This document shows, in pieces, positions 1,774-11,400 of a stretch of DNA of 64,000 bases; within the stretch, counting starts at the first letter, position 1, and the number at the start of each line of letters is the position of its first letter. The notes under the pieces are model-generated. The model was not told the origin of the DNA, searched no databases, and saw only the letters and a program-made list of their open reading frames with translations. The DNA is from Escherichia coli. Lineage in GTDB: Bacteria; Pseudomonadota; Gammaproteobacteria; Enterobacterales; Enterobacteriaceae. The DNA is taken from assembly GCF_030013205.1 (NCBI RefSeq), contig NZ_CP122649.1. The stretch is one strand, 5' to 3'. The position numbers were made by a program, and so were the translations under genes.

Positions 1774-1950
1774 AGGGAATTCCTGTTGTCATGTTCGTGA
1801 ATGAAAATCCGCTGAACCATATCATACCGTTACATAAATTACGGCTTAGTGCCGGGATATCTTTCCCGAATGCTGAGCCATTGAAATTTGATCTTTTCTC
1901 TTTATCTGGTAATACTGGTTAAATATCCAGTATTGAATCCGAGTGTGCTC

Positions 1951-2385
1951 ATGTCTGTATTCCCTGAACGTTTTGCATCCCCTCCTCGTGATACAACCCC
2001 TTTTTTCAGTGACCTACTGAGTTGCGGGGTGATGAGTCCGTGCGCCGGACACGAAGACAATGAGCTGAATTTACATGATTTTGTGGTTCGTAATCGCCCC
2101 GCGACTTTCTTTGTCAGGGCCTCAGGTCTCAGCATGGTAGACGCCGGAATAAACGACGGCGCCATACTGGTTGTGGATCGGTCACTGACTGCGGAGCACG
2201 GCTCAATCGTCGTTGCGCTGGTTGACGGCGAGTTTACCGTGAAGATTTTGCAGACCTTCCCGAAACTGATGTTGATGCCCTCCAACCCCGCCTTCAAGCC
2301 GATACCTGTTAACCCGGACACTCTTGAAATCTGGGGCGTTGTCACCTTTGCGTTGAATCAGTTTCCTCATGTACATGCACGTTGA
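1951..2385 (+). CDS. umuD: UmuD/MucA-like S24 peptidase, translesion polymerase accessory subunit
   Basis: LexA-like C-terminal domain (FFVRASGLSM ... FTVKIL); start placed at MSVFPERF; stop overlaps the umuC-like start as in umuDC operons. Confidence 0.85.
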   Translation: MSVFPERFASPPRDTTPFFSDLLSCGVMSPCAGHEDNELNLHDFVVRNRPATFFVRASGLSMVDAGINDGAILVVDRSLTAEHGSIVVALVDGEFTVKILQTFPKLMLMPSNPAFKPIPVNPDTLEIWGVVTFALNQFPHVHAR

Positions 2386-3628
2386 TATCAATGGAGCCTA
2401 CGCGGCATTTGAATGCGCCATGGACCCCAAACTTGCCAAATCCCCGCTCATCATCGCGAGCAACAACGATGCCACCATTATCGCCATGAACAGGCTCGCC
2501 AAAAATACAGGGCTCAAACGCGGGATGCCTATCTTCAAATGCCGGGATCTGATTGAGCAGCATCATATTGCGGTACGGAGCTCCAACTTTACGTTGTACG
2601 AAGATTATTCCAACCGGTTTCATGAAACGCTGGAGGGGTTTGCCGAGGATACCGATCGTTACAGCGTGGATGAAAGCTTCATGCTACTGAAAAACATGGA
2701 CAAAATAGTAGATTTTGAAGAGTACGGATGCCTGATCAGACGAACGCTGCTACACAATCTTTCGCTCACCTGCGGGATTGGAGTATCGACCACGAAAACG
2801 CTCGCAAAATTATGCACCTACGCCAGTAAGCGATGGGCAGCAACTGGTGGTGTGGTCGTCCTTACAGACCCATTCCGAATTAAAAAACTGCTGAGTCTCA
2901 TCAGTACCCGGGAAATCTGGGGCATTGGCCGCAAAATCAGTGAGCGGCTGGCTGCGTACGGGATCATCACGGCCTGCGACTTTTATGACAGCGATGTGCG
3001 GTTTTTACGAAAGGCATTCGGTGTTGAAATGGAACGTACCTGGCGGGAGCTGCATGGCGAGTCCTGTTTCCGGTTGCATGAATCCCCTCCTGTCAGACAA
3101 CAAATTATCGTCTCACGGAGCTTTGGCCAGCGCCTTAATACATTCAGCAAGATGCATGAGGCAGTGTCATTCTTTACCGGCCGTGCCGCTGAACAGCTTC
3201 GAAACGATGGCTCCTGGACTCGCCAAATCACCGTGTTTATCCAGAGCAGCCCGTTTGCCAGAGCTGAAACCCGGTACAGCAGCTGCGGTATTGAGCCGCT
3301 TACTGCGACGCAGGACACCCGCGACCTGGTCAGTGCGGCAGGCGCCATACTGACCCGAATCTACAAACCCGGCATAGATTATGCGAAGGCGGGCGTGATG
3401 CTTTCGTCAATGACCGATGGCACTGAGCAGCTATCCCTGTTCGATGAACGTCCCGCCAGGCGAGGCAGTGAAGCACTGATGAAGGTGATGGATCGGTTTA
3501 ACAAAGAGCATCGAGGTTCTCTGTTTCTGGCTTGCGAAGGGATTCATCAGGATTTCCGGGGGAAGCAGGCCATGCTGTCCCCACGGTATACCACTCGCTG
3601 GAATGAGTTACTTGTCGTCAAAGCCTGA
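2369..3628 (+). CDS. umuC: UmuC/MucB-like Y-family error-prone DNA polymerase
   Basis: 419 aa; N-terminal VDINGAYAAFE resembles the UmuC/ImpB family start; operon partner of the umuD-like gene. Confidence 0.88.
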   Translation: MYMHVDINGAYAAFECAMDPKLAKSPLIIASNNDATIIAMNRLAKNTGLKRGMPIFKCRDLIEQHHIAVRSSNFTLYEDYSNRFHETLEGFAEDTDRYSVDESFMLLKNMDKIVDFEEYGCLIRRTLLHNLSLTCGIGVSTTKTLAKLCTYASKRWAATGGVVVLTDPFRIKKLLSLISTREIWGIGRKISERLAAYGIITACDFYDSDVRFLRKAFGVEMERTWRELHGESCFRLHESPPVRQQIIVSRSFGQRLNTFSKMHEAVSFFTGRAAEQLRNDGSWTRQITVFIQSSPFARAETRYSSCGIEPLTATQDTRDLVSAAGAILTRIYKPGIDYAKAGVMLSSMTDGTEQLSLFDERPARRGSEALMKVMDRFNKEHRGSLFLACEGIHQDFRGKQAMLSPRYTTRWNELLVVKA

Positions 3629-3670
3629 CGTTCATGCCGGTGTTACCCGGCATGGCCAGTTTCGGAAGGA

Positions 3671-3681
3671 AAAGTAACTTT
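3671..3681. promoter_or_regulatory. AAAGTWACTTT palindrome site
   Basis: Exact match, between convergent umuC and dsbA-like 3' ends. Confidence 0.6.
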
Positions 3682-4510
3682 AGCCTCCACGGGCCTTCTG
3701 GATTGCGTATTTCAGGGTGGCCTCGTCAACAGCGCCCGGGATGAATGACGTCGTTGCAGCGTCGGGTTTTTGCATGTTCATAATAATGAACCCTGGCGTA
3801 CCGTTAATCCCGAGAGCTTCCCCCAGCTGCATGTTTCCGGAGATAACGTTCTCATAGCGGCTTTTCTCCCGATCGCCGAATGAGCTGTTGAACCCGGATT
3901 TGTTCACAACCATGTCTAAATCATTGAGTGTAAACGCACGCTGGTTGTTGAAGAATACATACGCACTGGTCATCAGATTGTTGTGATACTTACGATACGC
4001 TTCCGCACCGAATGTCTGATACACATGCAGGCCTGTCGCCGCCCCCATTGCGGAAACAGGTTTTGAGCCAGCGAAGATCGGAAATTCTTTAAAGAAGAAC
4101 TTTACATCAGTGCTTTGGCTCAACACAGATTCAACAACCGGCGCTACCTGCATACAGAAATGACACTGGTAGTCGAAAAACTCAATAACAGCGACGGCCG
4201 CATTATCAGGTCCGATATTGGGTGTCTCTTTGGTCTCGAAGAGTGCCGGTGCGTAGGGGATAATCCGCTCAAGGGAAGCGTTAGTATTTTCTTTTTCTAG
4301 CGCCTTACCTGCTTCGAGAAGATACTGGGGATTTTTTACCAGATAGGAAGCAGCTACTCGTCCTATTTCGTCGTTACCCGGTACATCGGGTTTTAGATAT
4401 TTCGACGTAATATACACAGAGCCAGCCGTCGCAATCACCGCAGAAATTAAAACAGACGCCACGGGTTTTAAATAATTTAATTTAATCATAGCCACCTTTA
4501 CGCATTTCAA
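3680..4510 (-). CDS. thioredoxin-fold thiol:disulfide oxidoreductase (DsbA-like)
   Basis: CHFC redox motif after an N-terminal membrane/signal segment. Confidence 0.65.
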   Translation of the reverse strand: MKCVKVAMIKLNYLKPVASVLISAVIATAGSVYITSKYLKPDVPGNDEIGRVAASYLVKNPQYLLEAGKALEKENTNASLERIIPYAPALFETKETPNIGPDNAAVAVIEFFDYQCHFCMQVAPVVESVLSQSTDVKFFFKEFPIFAGSKPVSAMGAATGLHVYQTFGAEAYRKYHNNLMTSAYVFFNNQRAFTLNDLDMVVNKSGFNSSFGDREKSRYENVISGNMQLGEALGINGTPGFIIMNMQKPDAATTSFIPGAVDEATLKYAIQKARGG

Positions 4511-4595
4511 CTTGTTAGTTATCAGCCTGCGTTCGATTATACTGGCACGGTATATCGGAATTATTCATTAAAGAACCCTTTTTGGAGGATTTAGA

Positions 4596-5207
4596 ATGTT
4601 ACGGCAATTTTTCTTACTAACAGCCACAACGTTCTTATGTGGATGCGGTTATCATTTTGGAAATGACGTTGATGCGTACGATTTACTGCCCCGCCCGGTA
4701 GGCAGCAAGAAATTTGAAATTGTTGCTCCGGATGACAGTATTCAGTCGCGAATGTTTGCAGCCCGGTTTGCGAGCGGATTAACGGGTAAGGGGTTTAATA
4801 TTTCCAGCCATCAGCCCGAATATATTCTCAGATTCAGTTACAGCAAGACCCAGGAGAATCTGCAATACAGTGAACTACCGGTGACGGGAATAACCGGATA
4901 TGTTATCGAGAAGAAAACAACGCGAAAAGATAAGCACGGGCAAACTGAGACGGACTATGACTATAAGCCGGTCAGTGGGATCGTAGGAACAGAGACGGTA
5001 TCACAAAGACATTTCTGGCGTCGTCTTGATGTGGAAGTCTACCCTGCGGGAAAAAATGCACAGCAGGTGCTAAAAGTCAGTATGCAGAGCAATGCGCCGA
5101 TCCCATCGGACAGCGTGGCGTATTCCGCAATGATTGACGCTTTGACCGGGAATCTGGATGCCCCGCTGCGCTCCGGAAACTACGTCGCCTCGGTCCCCTG
5201 GAACTGA
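4596..5207 (+). CDS. lipoprotein
   Basis: N-terminus LLTATTFLCGCG fits a lipobox. Confidence 0.55.
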   Translation: MLRQFFLLTATTFLCGCGYHFGNDVDAYDLLPRPVGSKKFEIVAPDDSIQSRMFAARFASGLTGKGFNISSHQPEYILRFSYSKTQENLQYSELPVTGITGYVIEKKTTRKDKHGQTETDYDYKPVSGIVGTETVSQRHFWRRLDVEVYPAGKNAQQVLKVSMQSNAPIPSDSVAYSAMIDALTGNLDAPLRSGNYVASVPWN

Positions 5208-5265
5208 TGACCGGCACTGTAACGACCAACCACAAATTAACTTTTCTCACCTGCATGCCACGTCT

Positions 5266-5688
5266 TTACCGGCCTCCTCTGTTGAAATCATAGAGTCGGT
5301 ACAGATCACCGATGGTCAGCTCATCCACTTTGGTCACGAAGAGATATTCAAACTGAGCTTTCTGAATATCTGAGACTGACGCATCGTCCAGCACCGTTTG
5401 GTAAAATTTGGCATTGATACATCTTTCCGGATGCATGAACTGGTACCGCCCCTGGAGCACCACCATCAGAAAGATCAATATCAGCAGAACGAGAAGTAAC
5501 ATCTGGTTGGAAAGATCCAGTCCCAGCGACACACCAATGGTTGCCATGAAACAGAGAGTCCATCCCACCAGGGCGTAAGGAGCCTTTTGGATCTTTTGTT
5601 GGTAATAACGGAGGATCACCGGATCATTTAAATACCGCTTATCCGGCAATCCCGTTGCCCGGGTGACAATGCTGAGCCAAAGCGACAT
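5266..5688 (-). CDS. inner-membrane protein
   Basis: Two hydrophobic helices (LVGWTLCFMATIGV, LLLVLLILIFLMVVL). Confidence 0.5.
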   Translation of the reverse strand: MSLWLSIVTRATGLPDKRYLNDPVILRYYQQKIQKAPYALVGWTLCFMATIGVSLGLDLSNQMLLLVLLILIFLMVVLQGRYQFMHPERCINAKFYQTVLDDASVSDIQKAQFEYLFVTKVDELTIGDLYRLYDFNRGGR

Positions 5689-5710
5689 CTTCTAACCCCC
5701 AGCGACGCAC

Positions 5711-6103
5711 TCAGGCCAGACGTTCATAGAACGCAACAATGGGCTGGAAGATGGGTGTTTGTACCAGCTCGGGGCGAATGGCTTTCAGCTGCCTTACCGG
5801 CGCCAACTCATCCCTCGGCTTAGCGATTTCATTGCTAGGGCCTTTCTTGGTACTGTCGGTGTTCACCTTTAACCTGTCATTGCTCAGATACGACTCAAAC
5901 CGTTTCGACATCACGTCGCTGCGGGATGTCGCATCATTGAGTTTTTTTAAAACTGCGTCTTTATCTGTCTGAGCAGCAGATACCAGACTCTCACTGCTGG
6001 CCACAGTGTCGGCGTCGCAGGCCCCGAACTGGCATTTGGCAGCAAAGACGGGTTGAGAACCAACCGCCACCAGCATTAACGTTGTCAGTATTGCAGATTT
6101 CAT
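5711..6103 (-). CDS. exported protein
   Basis: Start at MKSAILTTLMLVAV (AAGAGG RBS); signal peptide; Cys pair CQFGAC. Confidence 0.5.
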   Translation of the reverse strand: MKSAILTTLMLVAVGSQPVFAAKCQFGACDADTVASSESLVSAAQTDKDAVLKKLNDATSRSDVMSKRFESYLSNDRLKVNTDSTKKGPSNEIAKPRDELAPVRQLKAIRPELVQTPIFQPIVAFYERLA

Positions 6104-6128
6104 AAACACCTCTTGCAGTCGTGGAAAG

Positions 6129-6878
6129 TCACTTTTGTTCGGCACCCATGCGGGTCACCAGATTTTCCGGGCTCATCCAACCGGTGAATAGCTGAGGTTT
6201 CCCCGACAGCGTTACCATCGTTGGCGTACCCTGAAGCGGAATAGTTGAAGCTACCTGGAAATGCGATTTGATGGTATCGAGGCAGGCCTCGTCAGGCCGT
6301 CCTTCCGGAATGGTTGATGTCGGGCTCATTGCGGCATCCAGTGCATCATTAGGTTTTGCCGCACACCATATTTTTGCCATATTCCCCGCGACAACGGAGT
6401 TGAGACCTGCACGTGGAAAGGCGAGGAATTTGATTGAGATCCCGGCGTCGAGATAGGATTGAAGATCTTGATGCAATTTCTGGCAAAAGCCGCATGTAAT
6501 ATCCGTAAACACTGCCAGACGGTATTTTTCATTCGCCGACTTATATTCGATGGATTTTGTTTTAGTGGCGAACTCCCTGACACCTTTCAGAATAGCCTGC
6601 TCAGTTGTGTTCTCCACATCTTTCCCGTTCACATGAAACAAGCTCCCGGTGAAAATGTAATCGCCATCTTTGCTGACGTAGCTCACGCCCTCTCTTGAAA
6701 TGACGGTATAAATATCTTTTACCGGCGATGGTTCAATATGCTCGATAGACAAGCCCACTTCTCTTAATTTCTTCAGTGCAGCATCGGGAAGCACGTCAGT
6801 GTTCGCTGTCTGGGCATTCATACTCAAGGCCGTACAGGATGCCAGTAAAAATAATGATGCCTTGATAGTCTTATTCAT
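6129..6878 (-). CDS. DsbC-like disulfide isomerase
   Basis: Signal peptide, CGFC active site, DsbC-like length (249 aa). Confidence 0.72.
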   Translation of the reverse strand: MNKTIKASLFLLASCTALSMNAQTANTDVLPDAALKKLREVGLSIEHIEPSPVKDIYTVISREGVSYVSKDGDYIFTGSLFHVNGKDVENTTEQAILKGVREFATKTKSIEYKSANEKYRLAVFTDITCGFCQKLHQDLQSYLDAGISIKFLAFPRAGLNSVVAGNMAKIWCAAKPNDALDAAMSPTSTIPEGRPDEACLDTIKSHFQVASTIPLQGTPTMVTLSGKPQLFTGWMSPENLVTRMGAEQK

Positions 6879-6983
6879 TTCAGCTCCTTTAATGGAGTGT
6901 TAATACTATCATGCGAAAAAATCTGCCTAATTCGCTTAAGGGGAAAAATTCCCCCCTATAGCAAAAAAAATTTTGACGACGAT

Positions 6984-7541
6984 ATGGGAGAATATCCAGA
7001 ACGTAATTCCAGCGGAGATTATCTCGTGTTTATACCACCAGTAGACGATGTGAAACCTATTCCCGTTCCTGTTGAGATCTACACGCAGTGCATTACCGAT
7101 GCCTCCCGTTTTTTCGGGATTGATGCGGAGTTGGTCTTTACGCTTTTTGATAATGAGGGCGGAAAAGTCGGGACGTTCAGCCGTAATAAAAATGGCACTT
7201 ATGATATTGGGCCTATGCAGATCAATTCGTCCAACCTGCCGGAAATACGCGACCATTTTCCGTCTGTTACGTGGCGGGTGCTGGCCTATGACGCCTGTGC
7301 CAGTTTCTGGGTGGGCACCTGGTGGCTTTACCGGAAGATTGTTGACCGGAAGGGTAACGTATTTGAAGGGATTGCCGATTACAACAGCAAAACCCCTAAG
7401 GTCCGGGCGACGTATATCTTCAACTTCATGATCAAATACAATCGCCGGATTCAGCGCCGAAATGGAATGGACGAATTATATCAGTGGACGCAACCTAAGC
7501 CCCAGTACAACGGGCATATTGTAAAAAATCTTCCTGAATAA
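6984..7541 (+). CDS. lytic transglycosylase (SLT domain), conjugation-associated
   Basis: SLT-type motifs (GPMQIN, AYNAG-like region); internal ATG at 6984 preferred. Confidence 0.75.
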   Translation: MGEYPERNSSGDYLVFIPPVDDVKPIPVPVEIYTQCITDASRFFGIDAELVFTLFDNEGGKVGTFSRNKNGTYDIGPMQINSSNLPEIRDHFPSVTWRVLAYDACASFWVGTWWLYRKIVDRKGNVFEGIADYNSKTPKVRATYIFNFMIKYNRRIQRRNGMDELYQWTQPKPQYNGHIVKNLPE

Positions 7542-7592
7542 AATACGACCCTACTCTCCAATTTTTTATTAGTTGTTTCGTAGCCATAAACA

Positions 7593-8204
7593 ATGCGGCT
7601 CTTAGAGAATGAAAACGTCCTGAGAAAAAGGTTAACGATGCTCCAGTCAATTTATAAATTCCTGTTCAATTTATGCAGTTCACCGCAGCTGCCCAAAAAT
7701 AAAGACGTGGATGGGATATTGTCTCATGAAGAAATAACCGCTGGATTATGGGGTCCTTTGCCATCAATCCATGTTGTTCTTTTCCTGGATTTTGATGGTG
7801 TAGTCCACAAATGTCAGAATGAATCGTTCGAGAGGATGCATTTGATTGAGAGGTTACTTGACGCGAGTCCTTCAATGTTCATCGTTATATCAAGCTCATG
7901 GAGAGAGTGCGGCAGTATCACTTACCTAAAGTCACTTTTCCGCTCGCCATACAGAGACAGGGTAATTGGAGCAACCCCATCCCTGTATCTCCCCTCAGGA
8001 AGTATAGGAGTCCGTGCAGCTGAATGTGAGGACTTCGTCACCAGACACAAAGTAAAAGCCTTTATCTGCCTTGATGACGATGCGACCCTGTTTCCTCCAG
8101 AGTACCCGCACCTGTTTCGTACAGATTATTACACCGGGGTTAATGAAAAGGATCTAACGGACCTGATAGCCAGATATAATGTGCTGATGACCCGCTTTTA
8201 TTGA
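7593..8204 (+). CDS. HAD-superfamily hydrolase-like protein
   Basis: HAD motif I VVLFLDFDGVVH; start codon uncertain. Confidence 0.5.
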   Translation: MRLLENENVLRKRLTMLQSIYKFLFNLCSSPQLPKNKDVDGILSHEEITAGLWGPLPSIHVVLFLDFDGVVHKCQNESFERMHLIERLLDASPSMFIVISSSWRECGSITYLKSLFRSPYRDRVIGATPSLYLPSGSIGVRAAECEDFVTRHKVKAFICLDDDATLFPPEYPHLFRTDYYTGVNEKDLTDLIARYNVLMTRFY

Positions 8205-8298: not shown

Positions 8299-8450
8299 TC
8301 TCTCAATTTTCATTTTGAACAGAAGAAATGCACATTTTCTTAGTGTGCCGGGTGACCTGTATTTGGTGAGGAAATTTGAATCAGGGTGATGCAAGCAAAA
8401 AAAGACCGTACTCAAAAGAGAGTACGGCCTTTATCAGCTACTACTTACTT

Positions 8451-11400
8451 TTACTTCTTATTTTCATTCAGCCAGCTTTTAGCTTTCTCAATTCTCGACT
8501 GATATGGTTCATTTGTATTATTCAGGTTTGACTTCATAAAGCTCACGAATGCATCTGCTTTATCCGGCCCAAAACGTGGATCATCGGTCAGTTGCTGACG
8601 AATCGCACGTTCTGAGTTTTGTGATGCAGTCTCATACGCCTTGATCCCATCCCCCCCCATATCCTTATACCTGCTGGTCACCTCGCTAACACCATCTGAC
8701 ATTTGCAGGTGATTTCCAACCTTGCCCAATAGCGAGCTCGGCATATTTTGTGGATTCGAAGCATCGTTTGCCAAAGATGAAGGGGTGGTCAGGATACCCA
8801 TACCTGAGAGCATGTCGTTTACAGGTTTAGCTCCGATAACGTCAAGTCCTCTGGCAACACTCTCCTGCCCCGATAAAAGCGTACTACCAATAACACCACG
8901 TTCTGTATTGGACTCAATTTTATTACCAACAAGGAGATCCGTCGTGGTTTGGGTTCGTTGCCCAACGAGCCCGCCGCCAGAACCACCTTCCCCAAGATTC
9001 GCCCTCACAACTGAGTCAAGAGAACCTGAAGCCTTGTTATGCATGTTGAAACCTTCATGGATATTCTGGAGATCGTTCATCCCCCAGCGAACGTTATAGT
9101 GACTCAGTTCGGAGAGGATATTTTGAGTATCCGCTTTCAGTTGTTCTTTCTCAGCGCCGGTTGCCATTGTACTGGCGCCATAGGTAAACACAGCTTGTGC
9201 GGCCAGTTCCGCACGTTTGTCATCCGGCTTTTTGGTAGGATCATTTGCAATCCTGCCAAAATAATTCGGGAGGTTGCCTGATATACCGCGTATCTGGTTA
9301 TCTCCGTACATATTATTCAGTTTGTCGCTGATAGTACCCATGCCCGAAGTCGCATGCTTACCGCCCGAACCAGCCTGTAACTGGTCGAAAGTTTGGTTGG
9401 CGTGCTGAACGTCCACCCCAGCCCCCTGAACTCTTCCCACAGTTTCATTCGTCACAACAGGGGTATTCTTCTCCAATGACGAGAGCACATTCTGGTTCTC
9501 TTCGCTATAGGATTTATTTACATTACCTTGATGAATGCCCTGAATATCTTCTTTGCTGATCTTGTCCACATTGTACGGAGTTACACCAGACTCAGTTTGT
9601 CCACCAACATGCTGGTTAGCATTTTGTTGGTTTTGTACCAGCCCGGCTTTTGCCTGAGCATCCATACTTTGCCCCACGTCAGCAACACGATCAGCGCTCA
9701 TTACGCTGGACGTATTTACATGTTCTGGGGTGCGATCCTGCGCCTGTGCAATCGTGTTAATACCCGAGGCATCACCAGTGATTCGGTCAAGCTGATTAGT
9801 AATCGGCAGCATCTGTTGAGCGTTACCGCCAAAGTCAGCAACCAGCCCTTTAAGCAGGCTGGAAGTTTCACGCAGATCCTGTTTATTGCTCTCAGCCGTT
9901 TCACCTCGGGCAGTATCAATCGCTATTTTTTGCTCACTAAAGTCACGTGTCGTTGCCACCAGCGCATCTGTACGTTGGAGTTGTGAACCCAACTGAGTGC
10001 TGGCCTTAAATGTGTCATTATAGGAATTGAACTTCTCCATAAAGGCATTCTCATCAAGACCATTTTTCCGTGCAAAATTACGCACATCTTCATCGCTAAA
10101 GTTTTTATTACGGATAGAATCGGAGAATCTGTCCAGGTTGATAGCCTGTCTTGAGTCGAGTGTCATGCCAGTATTGGCGCTGGCGTTCGTTGAAAGTGAC
10201 GTCGACAAGTTTTCGGCCATTGTCTGTGTGGACTGGTTCATTTTTGTTGCAGCTTCTTTGAATGCATTGGTCTGTGCAAACTGATCACTGTTTATCTGAG
10301 CAGCCGCTTTAGTCATTTGGTCAGTCAGTCCTGAGTTTTCAGTCAATTGAGTCGTAATAGCTTTACTCAAATCAGTTAAGAGACTTTCATTCCCAGAATT
10401 ACTTTTCGTGATCCCTGATCCAACTTGCCCCCCCGCTTTTATTCCTAGGCTATCCATTACTTTCTGAGCGAGACCTCCTCCTCCTCCTTTTCCAAGTTTT
10501 TCTTCACCACCAAGTCCCAAACTGCCATTGAGCAGAAGATTTGACACCACGCCAGCTAATTGCTGCGAATTAATTCCATGCTTCGCCCCTACGCTATTCG
10601 CGATGTTTGCACCGGCCTGGTCAGTAAATGATTTCAAGCTTTGCAGGTTGGAGGTAAATTGCTGGCCTGATTGCCCCGTTCGGCCAACTTCACTCATCTG
10701 GTTGAAGGCCTGCTGGAATGTGTTACTTGCTGCGCTCATGGCTGAAGAGGTAAATGCTGCCCCTTGCCCCTGGCTTGACGCGATACTTGAACCGGCATTC
10801 CACGTACCGAGTCGGAAATTACTGGAGTCCATGGCCCCGCCACCACTGAATCCTTGGCCGGTGCTTGTCAGCGCGGTACGATTCACATCCCCAAACGATG
10901 ATTTTCCGCTGTTTGGCGCATCCCACACTTTCGGCGTGAGGTGGCTGGAGTCCACTGGCGCTGGTGGTGTGACTCCTTTCATCGCGTTCATCATTGGATG
11001 AATGGATTGCGTCATCAGGAACAGCGTCAATACAGGGATAAGAGCATAGAGTGCTGATGCTACTGATAAATAAGAGCTGTATGTTTCGGCAAGCCCTGGC
11101 AAACCCATCCATGTCACCGCGTTACTCTGACTATTCAATGTGCTCCATGTATCAAGATCTGCGGTCGCCACTTTCTTCACGTAGGCATTCACCATAACCG
11201 CAGTAATAGGCCACATATTTACGAAAAGAATAAGCTGGAGATATTTTGCAGCAGCGGCCACACCATTTCCCCCGAGAGCCAAAAGCATGAGCAATGCAAA
11301 TGGGGCAACCATGTACGCAAACATCTCAAGAAACGCGATGGCTGCACCGGACAATTGCAGCCAGAGCTGCCCCTGAGATGCCATGGTATTCGTACGCTTT

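What the first reader, a model, noticed from the sequence alone, without database searches (positions are those of the whole stretch)
1951..8204. Translesion polymerase operon next to a periplasmic redox and cell-wall module
umuDC-like genes are followed by DsbA-like and DsbC-like oxidoreductases, a lipoprotein, exported proteins, a lytic transglycosylase and a HAD-like hydrolase. These are plausible support functions for pilus assembly. A perfect palindrome GGGGAAAAATTCCCC (6940-6956) lies in the divergent promoter region between the DsbC-like and transglycosylase genes.
Basis: partly seen in the sequence, partly recalled or inferred. Interest (0 to 1): 0.3.

Follow-up and report, generated by a model that had tools for sequence, protein, structure and literature searches.

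The report
Known R27 plasmid mucAB–Dsb backbone
This stretch is an already described part of the IncHI1 resistance plasmid R27: an SOS-controlled error-prone DNA polymerase operon sits beside a conserved set of disulfide-bond and cell-wall-cutting helper genes for the plasmid's mating machinery, and the reported "perfect palindrome" is a short imperfect inverted repeat that is no better than chance and is not conserved.

Summary
The gene content is confirmed. The window is an R27-type IncHI1 plasmid: 9 SNPs from R27 across 1951-8204, and ≥99% identical to 212 sequenced plasmids. The genes are R27 R0137-R0129: mucA, mucB, a BcfH/ScsC-like DsbA-fold protein, a lipoprotein, a two-helix membrane protein, a small exported protein, full-length DsbC, a TrbN/EtgA-like lytic transglycosylase and a HAD_SAK_2 phosphatase. 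They abut trhG of transfer region Tra1.

They form five transcription units, not one block. mucAB has its own LexA box (1913-1932) and, in published arrays, does not respond to HtdA. R0129-R0135 are derepressed 6-20-fold in an htdA mutant. This Dsb/transglycosylase module lies next to trhG in all five IncHI lineages examined, whereas mucAB comes and goes. A secondary source reports that deleting R27 dsbC lowers transfer about 10,000-fold, but only in dsbC-null hosts. The "support for the mating apparatus" reading is therefore supported, and already published.

The palindrome is at 6940-6954, not 6956. It is not perfect: 6-bp arms around an AAA spacer. Such repeats occur in 31% of shuffles of the same spacer. 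It falls in the least-conserved 5% of the spacer between IncHI1 and IncHI2. There is no evidence that it functions.

Side observation: the transglycosylase has no signal peptide.

The parts
1913..1932 (.). LexA (SOS) box TACTGGTTAAATATCCAGTA, 19 nt upstream of the mucA start
   Evidence: CTG-N10-CAG match and an 11-nt inverted repeat. A canonical box, TACTGTTTATACATACAGTA, sits at the same place in IncHI2.
1951..2385 (+). mucA / umuD-like gene (R27 R0137), the self-cleaving subunit of a Pol V-type polymerase
   Evidence: Peptidase_S24, E 2.5e-22. NCBIfam NF007621 scores 128.3 bits against a cut-off of 110. Annotated umuD in the plasmid records.
2369..3628 (+). mucB / umuC-like Y-family polymerase (R27 R0136); overlaps mucA by 17 nt
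   Evidence: IMS, IMS_C and DUF4113 domains. NCBIfam UmuC NF002955 scores 443.2 bits against a cut-off of 431.
3680..4489 (-). R0135 ('dsbA'): DsbA-fold oxidoreductase with a CHFC active site, an N-terminal hydrophobic anchor or signal, and a helical N-terminal extension (BcfH/ScsC class)
   Evidence: Pfam DSBA, E 2e-23; weak ScsC_N hit. Best solved relative is 7JVE (Salmonella BcfH, a trimeric DsbA-like protein), E 1.5e-35 over residues 39-268. CHFC at residue 109.
4596..5207 (+). R0134: lipoprotein of unknown function (leader MLRQFFLLTATTFLCGC)
   Evidence: ORF and annotation. 69% amino-acid identity to the IncHI2 orthologue. No family hit in Pfam, NCBIfam, PHROGs or PADLOC.
5266..5688 (-). 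R0133: small protein with two predicted membrane helices (about residues 38-85); unknown function
   Evidence: Hydropathy scan. 45% amino-acid identity to IncHI2, dN/dS 0.21. No family hit.
5711..6103 (-). R0132: small exported protein (signal peptide ...VFA|AK, CQFGAC motif); unknown function
   Evidence: 58% amino-acid identity to IncHI2, dN/dS 0.19. Faint similarity to the gene at the same position in Klebsiella pENVA, E 0.003.
6129..6878 (-). R0131 dsbC: full-length DsbC homologue (signal peptide, DsbC_N dimerisation domain, CGFC thioredoxin domain); first gene of the minus-strand unit dsbC-R0132-R0133
   Evidence: DsbC_N, E 9.5e-15, and Thioredoxin_2, E 3.6e-16. NCBIfam DsbC scores 179.6 bits, below the equivalog cut-off of 215. 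PDB DsbC chains match at E 1e-37 to 3e-42 over residues 32-248. CGFC at residue 129.
6879..7025 (.). 147-bp divergent spacer between dsbC and the transglycosylase gene; blocks conserved between IncHI1 and IncHI2 lie at 6879-6914 and 6980-6996
   Evidence: Alignment A1 and sliding identity. No consensus sigma-70 site was called inside it.
6940..6954 (.). The reported 'palindrome': an imperfect inverted repeat, GGGGAA-AAA-TTCCCC
   Evidence: 40% identity to IncHI2 against a spacer mean of 63%, placing it in the lowest 5% of 15-nt windows. Three of 15 nt differ in IncHI1B.
7026..7541 (+). R0130 ('bfpH, trbN-like'): specialised SLT-type lytic transglycosylase; GTG start; no signal peptide; catalytic Glu in NEGG
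   Evidence: SLT, E 1e-3, 19.1 bits, below the Pfam cut-off. NCBIfam TrbN, E 4.9e-21, and IagB, E 8e-13, both below their equivalog cut-offs. EtgA structure, E 3.5e-8. 90% amino-acid identity to IncHI2, dN/dS 0.03. Start and absent leader.
7638..8204 (+). R0129: HAD-superfamily phosphatase (HAD_SAK_2), DFDGV and DDD motifs; an alternative start at 7593 is used in the R27 RefSeq record
   Evidence: PF18143, E 2.2e-22, matching profile positions 1-138 of 139. Motifs. AF2 model with pLDDT 75.8 and weak fold matches to capless HAD phosphatases.
8394..8439 (.). Strong hairpin between the convergent HAD gene and trhG, probably a bidirectional terminator
   Evidence: Terminator-like site with a 13-pair stem. 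Inverted repeat with 20-nt arms.
8451..12440 (-). trhG (R0128), last gene of the Tra1 F operon; the anchor of the conserved neighbourhood
   Evidence: 1329-aa ORF. Annotated as a protein with a TraG N-terminal domain, followed by trhH and the thioredoxin-family gene in the position of trhF.

Best explanation
This is a known backbone segment of an R27-type IncHI1 conjugative plasmid. It holds two functionally separate things that happen to be neighbours.

(1) mucAB is a two-gene operon with overlapping reading frames, repressed by LexA. After DNA damage, MucA cleaves itself and, together with MucB, forms a Pol V-type translesion polymerase (UV protection and mutagenesis). It is not part of the transfer regulon.

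(2) Four short transcription units lie beside trhG: R0135; R0134; dsbC-R0132-R0133; and R0130-R0129. They form an accessory envelope module for the F-like type IV secretion and pilus apparatus. A dimeric DsbC-type isomerase and an N-terminally extended BcfH/ScsC-type DsbA-fold protein form and repair disulfide bonds in periplasmic Trh proteins. A specialised lytic transglycosylase opens the peptidoglycan locally for the apparatus. The HAD phosphatase, the lipoprotein and the two small proteins have no assigned role.

The module is expressed with the tra genes: low temperature, and the TrhR/TrhY-HtdA circuit. It is helpful rather than essential, because host Dsb enzymes overlap with it.

The GGGGAA-AAA-TTCCCC repeat in the dsbC/transglycosylase spacer is most likely a chance, lineage-specific sequence with no regulatory role.

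Shown here: gene identities, family assignments, synteny, purifying selection, the LexA box, and the statistics and non-conservation of the repeat. Taken from papers: regulation and the dsbC transfer phenotype. Inferred: the substrates, and the roles of R0135 and the transglycosylase in R27 itself.
For: Identity:
- 100% match of 6129-7541 to R27 NC_002305.1, and 9 SNPs over 1951-8204.
- 212 plasmids match at ≥99%; the records examined are typed MOBH / MPF_F.

mucAB:
- NCBIfam scores are above the curated cut-offs for both subunits.
- A LexA box sits 19 nt upstream and is conserved as a canonical box in IncHI2.
- Published fold changes in the htdA mutant are 1.27 and 1.47, against 6-20 for R0129-R0135. 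The authors list mucAB among the HtdA-independent genes.

Module:
- DsbC_N plus a CGFC thioredoxin domain; PDB DsbC matches at E ~1e-37 to 3e-42.
- R0135 matches BcfH (7JVE) at E 1.5e-35, including the N-terminal helix region.
- The transglycosylase matches TrbN, IagB and EtgA.
- The module lies next to trhG in IncHI1, IncHI1B, IncHI2 and two Klebsiella IncHI types, while mucAB is deleted or absent in three of these.
- All genes are under purifying selection between IncHI1 and IncHI2: dN 0.07-0.5 with synonymous sites saturated.
- R27 dsbC deletion lowers transfer about 10,000-fold in dsbC-null hosts. Rts1 Orf206 (related to R0135) and the Rts1 SLT protein Orf248 are needed for efficient transfer (PMC10838148).
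- In IncA/C plasmids the master activator AcaCD binds upstream of dsbC.
- TrhH has 8 cysteines and TrhF carries CQFC, so candidate substrates are encoded next door.

The repeat:
- Imperfect.
- 31% of shuffles contain an equal or better repeat.
- No second copy in 64 kb at ≤2 mismatches.
- In the lowest 5% of the spacer for IncHI1-IncHI2 identity.
- The hairpin energy is lost in IncHI1B and IncHI2.
Against: - HtdA dependence is not specific: 139 of 181 expressed R27 genes respond.
- R0131-R0134 change less than 2-fold with temperature.
- No mutant data for R0129, R0130 or R0132-R0135 in R27 were found. PMC10838148 states that the R27 SLT protein has not been analysed and that the function of R0135 is unknown.
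- The primary papers (Elton 2005; Lawley 2002) could not be read, so the dsbC phenotype is quoted second-hand.
- The transglycosylase has no signal peptide, so how it reaches the peptidoglycan is unexplained.
- On the minus strand of R27 the repeat extends into a 15-pair RNA hairpin (-18.1 kcal/mol, z -3.2). A lineage-specific role is therefore not strictly excluded.
Confidence: 0.85

Rival explanations
1. The GGGGAA-AAA-TTCCCC repeat is an operator for a dimeric plasmid regulator (for example TrhR/TrhY, HtdA or another R27 protein) that co-ordinates the divergent dsbC and transglycosylase promoters in the IncHI1 lineage.
For: It lies in the middle of a divergent spacer whose two flanking units are both strongly derepressed in an htdA mutant: 13-fold and 20-fold. 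The 9-mer AAAATTCCC inside it recurs twice in the region upstream of the F operon: 4 matches in the window against 0.91 expected, with 2 of 100 shuffles reaching 4.
Against: Imperfect and at chance level. No second copy at ≤2 mismatches in a 64-kb window that contains the R, F and H promoters. The 9-mer was chosen after seeing the data, and its F-operon copies are not conserved in IncHI2. The repeat is 40% identical in IncHI2, although PMC7366339 describes the TrhR/TrhY-HtdA circuit as highly conserved among IncHI plasmids. In IncHI1B three substitutions leave only a 5-bp repeat with a different spacing.
Confidence: 0.07
2. The Dsb/transglycosylase module is general envelope cargo that benefits the host (folding of fimbriae, toxins or other secreted proteins; copper or redox stress) and sits next to Tra1 only by ancestry, not to serve conjugation.
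For: The closest solved relative of R0135 is BcfH, encoded in a fimbrial operon, followed by the ScsC copper-stress proteins. According to the review text, the R27 dsbC deletion has no effect on transfer in wild-type hosts. R0131-R0134 are not thermoregulated more than 2-fold.
Against: The position next to trhG is kept in five IncHI lineages despite insertions and rearrangements around it. Related MOBH/MPF_F elements (Rts1, SXT, IncA/C) also carry dsbC-like and SLT genes that are required for, or regulated with, transfer. R0129, R0130 and R0135 are induced under every condition reported to favour R27 transfer.
Confidence: 0.1
3. mucAB and the periplasmic module form one functional island that couples translesion synthesis to conjugation, for example to process transferred single-stranded DNA.
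For: Adjacency in IncHI1 and IncHI2. From general knowledge, incoming single-stranded DNA can induce SOS in recipients.
Against: Separate transcription units on opposite strands. mucAB has its own LexA box and is HtdA-independent. mucAB is reduced to a 54-nt remnant in pP10159-4 and is absent from the Klebsiella IncHI loci that keep the module.
Confidence: 0.03

Closest known systems
R27 (IncHI1) ORFs R0129-R0137, beside the Tra1 F operon (trhF-trhH-trhG)
   Same: Essentially the same DNA: 9 SNPs in 6254 nt, with the same genes, order and spacing. The published names bfpH/trbN-like, dsbC, dsbA, mucB and mucA match the assignments made here.
   Different: Nothing material. The window matches an ETEC IncHI1 plasmid (NZ_CP122645.1) exactly.
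E. coli UmuDC / pKM101 MucAB (Pol V-type SOS translesion polymerases)
   Same: S24 self-cleaving subunit plus a Y-family polymerase, overlapping genes, and a LexA box upstream. NCBIfam scores are above the cut-offs.
   Different: The R27 box has CTGG...CCAG where the consensus has CTGT...ACAG. No activity was tested here.
E. coli DsbC (PDB 1EEJ); plasmid DsbP (4ML1); F TrbB
   Same: Signal peptide, N-terminal dimerisation domain and CXXC thioredoxin domain. Published redundancy with host DsbC in conjugation.
   Different: Scores below the NCBIfam DsbC equivalog cut-off (179.6 against 215), so it is a plasmid paralogue and not the housekeeping enzyme. Much closer to DsbC than to DsbP (E 1e-37 against 4e-10).
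Salmonella BcfH (PDB 7JVE) and the ScsC proteins: oligomeric DsbA-fold oxidase/isomerases
   Same: DsbA-type catalytic domain with CXXC plus a long N-terminal helical extension. The alignment covers residues 39-268, E 1.5e-35.
   Different: R0135 is plasmid-borne beside a T4SS rather than in a fimbrial or copper-stress operon. Its oligomeric state and activity are untested. Rts1 Orf206 is only about 23% identical to it.
Specialised lytic transglycosylases of secretion systems: TrbN (RP4), IagB, EtgA, VirB1/P19, Rts1 Orf248
   Same: Small SLT-type domain with a conserved catalytic Glu, encoded next to a secretion machine.
   Different: There is no Sec signal peptide in the IncHI1 and IncHI2 proteins or in 10 of 13 family members read, whereas the Klebsiella IncHI homologues have one. 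Scores are below the TrbN and IagB equivalog cut-offs. AtlA of the gonococcal F-like T4SS is a published leaderless transglycosylase, but of the lambda-endolysin type.
Pfam PF18143 HAD_SAK_2 (HAD domain of 'Swiss Army Knife' RNA-repair proteins)
   Same: Full-length profile match, E 2.2e-22, with the DxDGV and DD motifs. Capless HAD fold in the model.
   Different: Stand-alone protein co-transcribed with a transglycosylase, with no RNA-repair partners nearby. Fold matches are weak (E ≥ 2e-3, TM about 0.45).

Membership tests
UmuD/MucA (Pol V autoproteolytic subunit) | S24 peptidase domain scoring above the curated family threshold | tested here: met
   PF00717, E 2.5e-22. NF007621 scores 128.3 bits against a cut-off of 110.
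UmuD/MucA (Pol V autoproteolytic subunit) | Cleavage site and Ser/Lys dyad | tested here: inconclusive
   Reading the sequence shows SC|G, ASGLSM and FTVKIL where UmuD has QC|G, ASGDSM and FTVKKL. The UmuD sequence was recalled from memory, not aligned with a tool.
UmuC/MucB (Y-family polymerase, Pol V catalytic subunit) | IMS, IMS_C and DUF4113 architecture above the UmuC subfamily threshold | tested here: met
   NF002955 scores 443.2 bits against a cut-off of 431; DinB models score far below their cut-offs.
SOS regulon member | LexA box (CTG-N10-CAG palindrome) in the promoter | tested here: met
   TACTGGTTAAATATCCAGTA at 1913-1932. Canonical box at the same place in IncHI2. LexA binding itself is not testable here.
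DsbC-type disulfide isomerase | Signal peptide, N-terminal dimerisation domain and CXXC thioredoxin domain | tested here: met
   DsbC_N, E 9.5e-15; Thioredoxin_2, E 3.6e-16. CGFC and a hydrophobic leader. PDB DsbC matches over residues 32-248.
DsbC-type disulfide isomerase | Equivalog of housekeeping DsbC (NCBIfam cut-off) | tested here: not met
   179.6 bits against a cut-off of 215. It is a diverged plasmid paralogue.
DsbC-type disulfide isomerase | Isomerase activity; reduction by DsbD | not testable with these tools
   Activity of the R27 DsbC is reported in Elton 2005. That paper is not held, so it is known only through citation and from memory of the abstract.
BcfH/ScsC-class oligomeric DsbA-fold proteins | DsbA catalytic domain with CXXC | tested here: met
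   PF01323, E 2e-23. CHFC at residue 109.
BcfH/ScsC-class oligomeric DsbA-fold proteins | N-terminal helical oligomerisation extension | tested here: inconclusive
   The alignment to BcfH starts at residue 39 and covers its N-terminal region. ScsC_N scores 20.6 bits, below the cut-off of 25.8. The oligomeric state was not modelled.
Specialised (secretion-system) lytic transglycosylase | SLT-type fold with a catalytic Glu | tested here: met
   TrbN, E 4.9e-21; IagB, E 8e-13. EtgA, E 3.5e-8. The Glu of NEGG is invariant in 5 homologues. The Pfam SLT score (19.1) is below its cut-off of 21.3.
Specialised (secretion-system) lytic transglycosylase | Sec signal peptide or lipobox for export to the periplasm | tested here: not met
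   No hydrophobic N-terminus: maximum hydropathy 0.9, against 2.3-2.7 for exported neighbours and the Klebsiella homologue. No frame upstream encodes a leader, and IncHI2 and IncHI1B have in-frame stops upstream.
Specialised (secretion-system) lytic transglycosylase | Encoded with, and needed for, a secretion machine | tested here: inconclusive
   Kept near trhG in five lineages: adjacent in IncHI1/IncHI1B, and separated from trhG by inserted genes in IncHI2 and the Klebsiella types. No R27 mutant is reported.
HAD superfamily phosphatase (HAD_SAK_2) | Motif I DxDx(T/V), motif II S/T and motif IV acidic pair on a Rossmann-like core | tested here: met
   PF18143, E 2.2e-22. DFDGV at residue 51, SSS at about residue 85, and DDD at residue 146, invariant in 4 homologues. 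The model shows an alternating strand-helix core.
Operator / regulatory palindrome | Dyad symmetry beyond chance, recurrence at co-regulated promoters, and conservation in related plasmids | tested here: not met
   31% of shuffles match it. No other copy. Lowest 5% conservation.

The most novel reading that the evidence does not exclude
The most novel reading not excluded concerns the transglycosylase, not the palindrome. R0130 and most of its family have no export signal, yet they are among the most strongly conserved genes of the module (90% amino-acid identity between IncHI1 and IncHI2, dN/dS 0.03), and the Klebsiella IncHI relatives carry a classical Sec leader on the same mature protein. 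This would mean that the IncHI1/IncHI2 enzyme reaches the peptidoglycan by a Sec-independent route. It might be taken out by the T4SS itself or by a partner such as the small two-helix membrane protein R0133. Cell-wall cutting would then be coupled to machine assembly. Leaderless AtlA in the gonococcal F-like T4SS is a partial precedent. A weaker alternative is that the 6940 repeat is an IncHI1-specific operator or 5'-UTR hairpin.
Probability: 0.2. Interest if true: 0.4.

Novelty: already known. Interest (0 to 1): 0.1.

Why it matters
It matters little as a discovery. The segment is the published R27/IncHI1 backbone; its genes have been named since the R27 sequence, and their regulation and (for dsbC) transfer phenotype have been reported.

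IncHI plasmids do matter clinically: multidrug-resistant typhoid, and mcr and tet(X4) carriers. The accessory Dsb/transglycosylase module is a conserved but under-studied contributor to their transfer.

The useful outcomes here are negative or clarifying:
- The palindrome should not be pursued as a regulatory site.
- mucAB should be separated from the transfer module.
- R0135 is better described as a BcfH/ScsC-like protein than as a plain DsbA.
- The transglycosylase's missing signal peptide is a small open question that can be tested directly.

Tried and rejected
1. **Shared regulatory motif.** The 9-mer AAAATTCCC from the repeat also occurs at 15172 and 15469, upstream of the F operon (4 matches against 0.91 expected). 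With one mismatch there is no enrichment (26 against 24.7). The F-operon copies are not conserved in IncHI2. The pattern was chosen after seeing the data, so I rejected it as probable coincidence.

2. **Terminator or attenuator reading of the repeat.** No T-run follows the stem on either strand, and the genes diverge from it. On the minus strand an extended RNA hairpin is unusually stable in R27 (-18.1 kcal/mol, z -3.2). It collapses to -8.1 (z -0.5) in IncHI1B and -6.6 (z -1.0) in IncHI2. Rejected as a conserved structure.

3. **Consensus promoter scan.** It found nothing inside 6879-7025. Candidates picked by eye, such as an extended -10 TGATAGTAT on the minus strand at 6911-6903 inside a conserved block, remain guesses.

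4. **Rfam scan of the whole window.** It found only sok, at 33875-34036.

5. **PHROGs, PADLOC, NCBIfam and Pfam on R0132, R0133, R0134 and R0138.** No family hits. The Klebsiella genes in the same positions are not detectably related to R0133 or R0134.

6. **Structure of the HAD protein from a 4-sequence alignment.** It gave a usable core (pLDDT 75.8) but only weak PDB fold matches, so no substrate can be inferred.

7. **Primary papers.** Elton 2005, Lawley 2002, Sherburne 2000 and Hemmis 2013 are not held.

8. **Longer ORF for the transglycosylase, from GTG 6897.** Rejected: the extension is not conserved, is interrupted by stops in IncHI1B and IncHI2, and is not hydrophobic.

Full report
**What the window is**

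Region 1951-8204 matches 299 sequenced plasmids by megablast. Of these, 212 match at ≥99% identity over at least 80% of the query. They come mostly from Escherichia and Salmonella and are mostly conjugative. The stretch 6129-7541 is 100% identical to R27 (NC_002305.1, Salmonella Typhi). A direct comparison with R27 finds 9 single-base differences across 1951-8204.

The window therefore belongs to an R27-type IncHI1 plasmid. Downstream lie trhG, trhH, the thioredoxin-family gene in the position of trhF, two further genes, the oriT region, mobI, the MobH relaxase and the coupling protein. This is transfer region Tra1.

In R27 numbering (supplement of PMC7366339), the finding covers R0137 (mucA) to R0129.

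**Checking the genes**

- **mucA, 1951-2385.** It has a Peptidase_S24 domain and passes the NCBIfam threshold for the Pol V autoproteolytic subunit.
- **mucB, 2369-3628.** It overlaps mucA by 17 nt. It has the IMS, IMS_C and DUF4113 architecture and passes the UmuC threshold.
- **R0135, 3680-4489, minus strand.** It has a DsbA domain with CHFC. Its best solved relative is not classical DsbA but 7JVE, at E 1.5e-35 over residues 39-268. PMC11653150 identifies 7JVE as Salmonella BcfH, a trimeric DsbA-like protein that oligomerises through a long N-terminal helix. The ScsC proteins follow in the hit list, and Pfam gives a sub-threshold ScsC_N match. "DsbA-like" is right at the level of fold. "BcfH/ScsC-like" is more precise.
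- **R0134, 4596-5207.** A lipoprotein of unknown family.
- **R0133, 5266-5688, minus strand.** It has two predicted membrane helices, so it is a membrane protein rather than an exported one.
- **R0132, 5711-6103, minus strand.** It has a signal peptide.
- **R0131, 6129-6878, minus strand.** A full-length DsbC homologue with leader, DsbC_N dimerisation domain and CGFC. PDB DsbC chains match at E about 1e-37 to 3e-42. It scores below NCBI's equivalog cut-off, so it is a diverged plasmid paralogue.
- **R0130.** A small SLT-type transglycosylase related to TrbN, IagB and EtgA.
- **R0129.** It matches the HAD_SAK_2 profile end to end and has the DFDGV and DDD motifs. An AlphaFold model built from four homologues (pLDDT 75.8) gave only weak fold matches, to capless HAD phosphatases such as Tim50, Scp1, MDP-1 and T4 PNKP. 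No substrate can be named.

**Transcription units**

By strand and spacing there are five units:

- mucAB (+)
- R0135 (-)
- R0134 (+)
- dsbC-R0132-R0133 (-), with gaps of 25 and 22 nt
- R0130-R0129 (+)

The last unit ends at a strong hairpin (8394-8439) that faces the end of trhG.

**mucAB is separate from the rest**

A LexA-box palindrome, TACTGGTTAAATATCCAGTA, lies at 1913-1932, 19 nt before the mucA start. IncHI2 has the canonical TACTGTTTATACATACAGTA at the same place.

In the published R27 microarrays, mucA and mucB change 1.27- and 1.47-fold in an htdA mutant at 25 °C. The seven genes R0129-R0135 change 19.5-, 20.6-, 13.0-, 8.1-, 10.3-, 6.0- and 6.0-fold. The authors list mucAB among the few HtdA-independent genes that are "presumably independent of the conjugation process".

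Across lineages, mucAB is present in IncHI1 and IncHI2. It is reduced to a 54-nt remnant in the IncHI1B plasmid pP10159-4, and it is absent from the two Klebsiella IncHI loci. The DsbA-fold gene, dsbC and the transglycosylase gene stay together close to trhG in all five lineages. The adjacency in the title is therefore real but not functional.

**The module and conjugation**

Evidence that the periplasmic genes serve the mating apparatus:

- Synteny is conserved (above).
- Selection is purifying between IncHI1 and IncHI2. Synonymous sites are saturated, and dN ranges from 0.07 for the transglycosylase to 0.5 for R0133.
- R0129, R0130 and R0135 are 3.1-3.8-fold higher at the transfer-permissive 25 °C than at 37 °C. 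[quoted passage not shown]
- PMC10838148, citing Elton 2005, states that deleting R27 dsbC reduces transfer 10,000-fold, but only in dsbC-null hosts.
- In the related plasmid Rts1, a DsbG-domain protein with 23% identity to R0135 and an SLT-family protein are both required for efficient transfer.
- In IncA/C plasmids the master activator binds upstream of dsbC.
- Likely substrates are nearby. TrhH has 8 cysteines, and TrhF carries CQFC.

Caveats:

- HtdA affects 139 of 181 expressed R27 genes, so that response is not specific.
- R0131-R0134 are not thermoregulated more than 2-fold.
- PMC10838148 states that the R27 SLT protein has not been analysed and that the function of R0135 is unknown.
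- I could not read the primary papers.

**The palindrome**

The string GGGGAAAAATTCCCC is at 6940-6954, and two more C follow it. Its reverse complement is GGGGAATTTTTCCCC, so it is not a perfect palindrome. It has 6-bp arms around AAA.

In 5000 shuffles of the 147-bp spacer, 31% contain at least one inverted repeat with 6-bp arms and a loop of 0-10 nt. The window averages 0.69 such repeats per 147 bp. No other copy with two or fewer mismatches exists in the 64 kb, which includes the R, F and H promoter regions.

In an alignment of the spacer from five IncHI lineages:

- IncHI1B has GGGACAAAATTCCCT, which leaves only a 5-bp repeat with a different spacing.
- IncHI2 has ACGCTTAAATCAACG.
- The Klebsiella types have unrelated sequence.

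Against IncHI2, the 15-nt window is 40% identical where the spacer mean is 63%. That puts it in the lowest 5% of windows. The conserved blocks are 6879-6914 (the dsbC ribosome-binding site and TAATACTATCA) and 6980-6996 (GATATGGGAGAATA).

As RNA on the minus strand, the R27 sequence extends into a 15-pair hairpin (-18.1 kcal/mol, z -3.2). The IncHI1B and IncHI2 equivalents fold no better than shuffles.

A 9-mer shared with the region upstream of the F operon looked interesting. It did not survive a one-mismatch search or the comparison with IncHI2.

I conclude that the repeat is a chance, lineage-specific feature. I put about 7% on a lineage-specific regulatory role.

**The transglycosylase has no leader**

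The only start conserved across lineages is the GTG at 7026, preceded by GGAGA. It sits exactly where the mature protein of the Klebsiella IncHI homologues begins, after their canonical signal peptide MTRLFFGAVLFATLTVNANA|AFNPP.

No reading frame upstream in R27, IncHI1B or IncHI2 encodes a hydrophobic leader, and IncHI1B and IncHI2 have in-frame stops there. The N-terminal hydropathy maximum is 0.9. For the exported neighbours and the Klebsiella homologue it is 2.3-2.7.

Of 13 family members read from a large protein database, 10 start directly at the (F/L)xPP motif and 3 have leaders. One distant leaderless member sits among helicase and topoisomerase genes, consistent with a mobile element.

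The protein is nevertheless the best conserved of the module, with dN/dS 0.03. How it reaches the cell wall is open. A published parallel is AtlA of the gonococcal F-like T4SS, which is predicted cytoplasmic with no signal peptide yet is needed for DNA secretion (PMC6365954). This is a modest, testable question. It is not a new kind of system.

**Verdict**

The helper role of the module is plausible and already published, the link to mucAB is only adjacency, and there is no case for the palindrome. Novelty: already known. Interest: 0.1.

Noticed in passing
window 7026-7541 (+); L006 6627-7241; L005 6896-7435: The IncHI1/IncHI2 lytic transglycosylase R0130 has no signal peptide. The conserved GTG start sits at the mature N-terminus (FIPP). 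Klebsiella IncHI homologues carry a classical Sec leader on the same protein. Ten of 13 family members read from the large protein database are also leaderless.
   Followed up: partly
window 17158-17320: Four tandem copies of an inverted repeat of about 35 nt (CATAGGGTCACTTTTT...AAAAGTGRCCCTATG) lie in the spacer between the trhR-side genes and mobI. This is the oriT region of Tra1.
   Followed up: no
window 14579-14588 and 15180-15189: Two exact copies of TCGATAAATT flank the trhF start (14900). From memory (Lang et al. 2007), this 10-mer is the high-affinity H-NS nucleation consensus. With ≤1 mismatch it is not enriched (4 found against 6.4 expected), so only the exact pair is suggestive. 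It fits the published H-NS thermoregulation of R27 transfer.
   Followed up: partly
window 8394-8439: A strong hairpin (13-pair stem; 20-nt arms at 80% complementarity) lies between the convergent HAD gene and trhG. It is probably a bidirectional terminator.
   Followed up: no
window 33875-34036 (-): A full-length sok antisense RNA is the only Rfam match in the window (89.1 bits). It sits beside an annotated Hok toxin gene and forms a hok/sok post-segregational killing locus.
   Followed up: no
L005 8192-9481; L006 7509-10850; L007 7522-10872: The junction between the module and trhG is an insertion hotspot. IncHI2 carries an HNH endonuclease gene there. The Klebsiella IncHI plasmids carry a 3.3-kb AAA/helicase-like gene there.
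   Followed up: no
L006 1644-2258 (-), compared with window 7638-8204: The Klebsiella homologue of the HAD protein has an N-terminal transmembrane helix followed by KRRSK, which suggests a membrane-tethered cytoplasmic domain. It is encoded at the other end of the module. The R27 protein has no such helix.
   Followed up: partly
window 6980-6996 and 6900-6914: These are the best-conserved blocks of the dsbC/transglycosylase spacer between IncHI1 and IncHI2: GATATGGGAGAATA, and TAATACTATCA (which reads as an extended -10-like TGATAGTAT on the minus strand). They are better candidates for the real promoter or regulatory elements than the 6940 repeat.
   Followed up: partly
L004 1-3488: In the IncHI1B plasmid pP10159-4, mucAB is replaced by TerY-C, PP2C phosphatase and InaA-family kinase genes. 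Only a 54-nt DUF4113 remnant of mucB is left.
   Followed up: no
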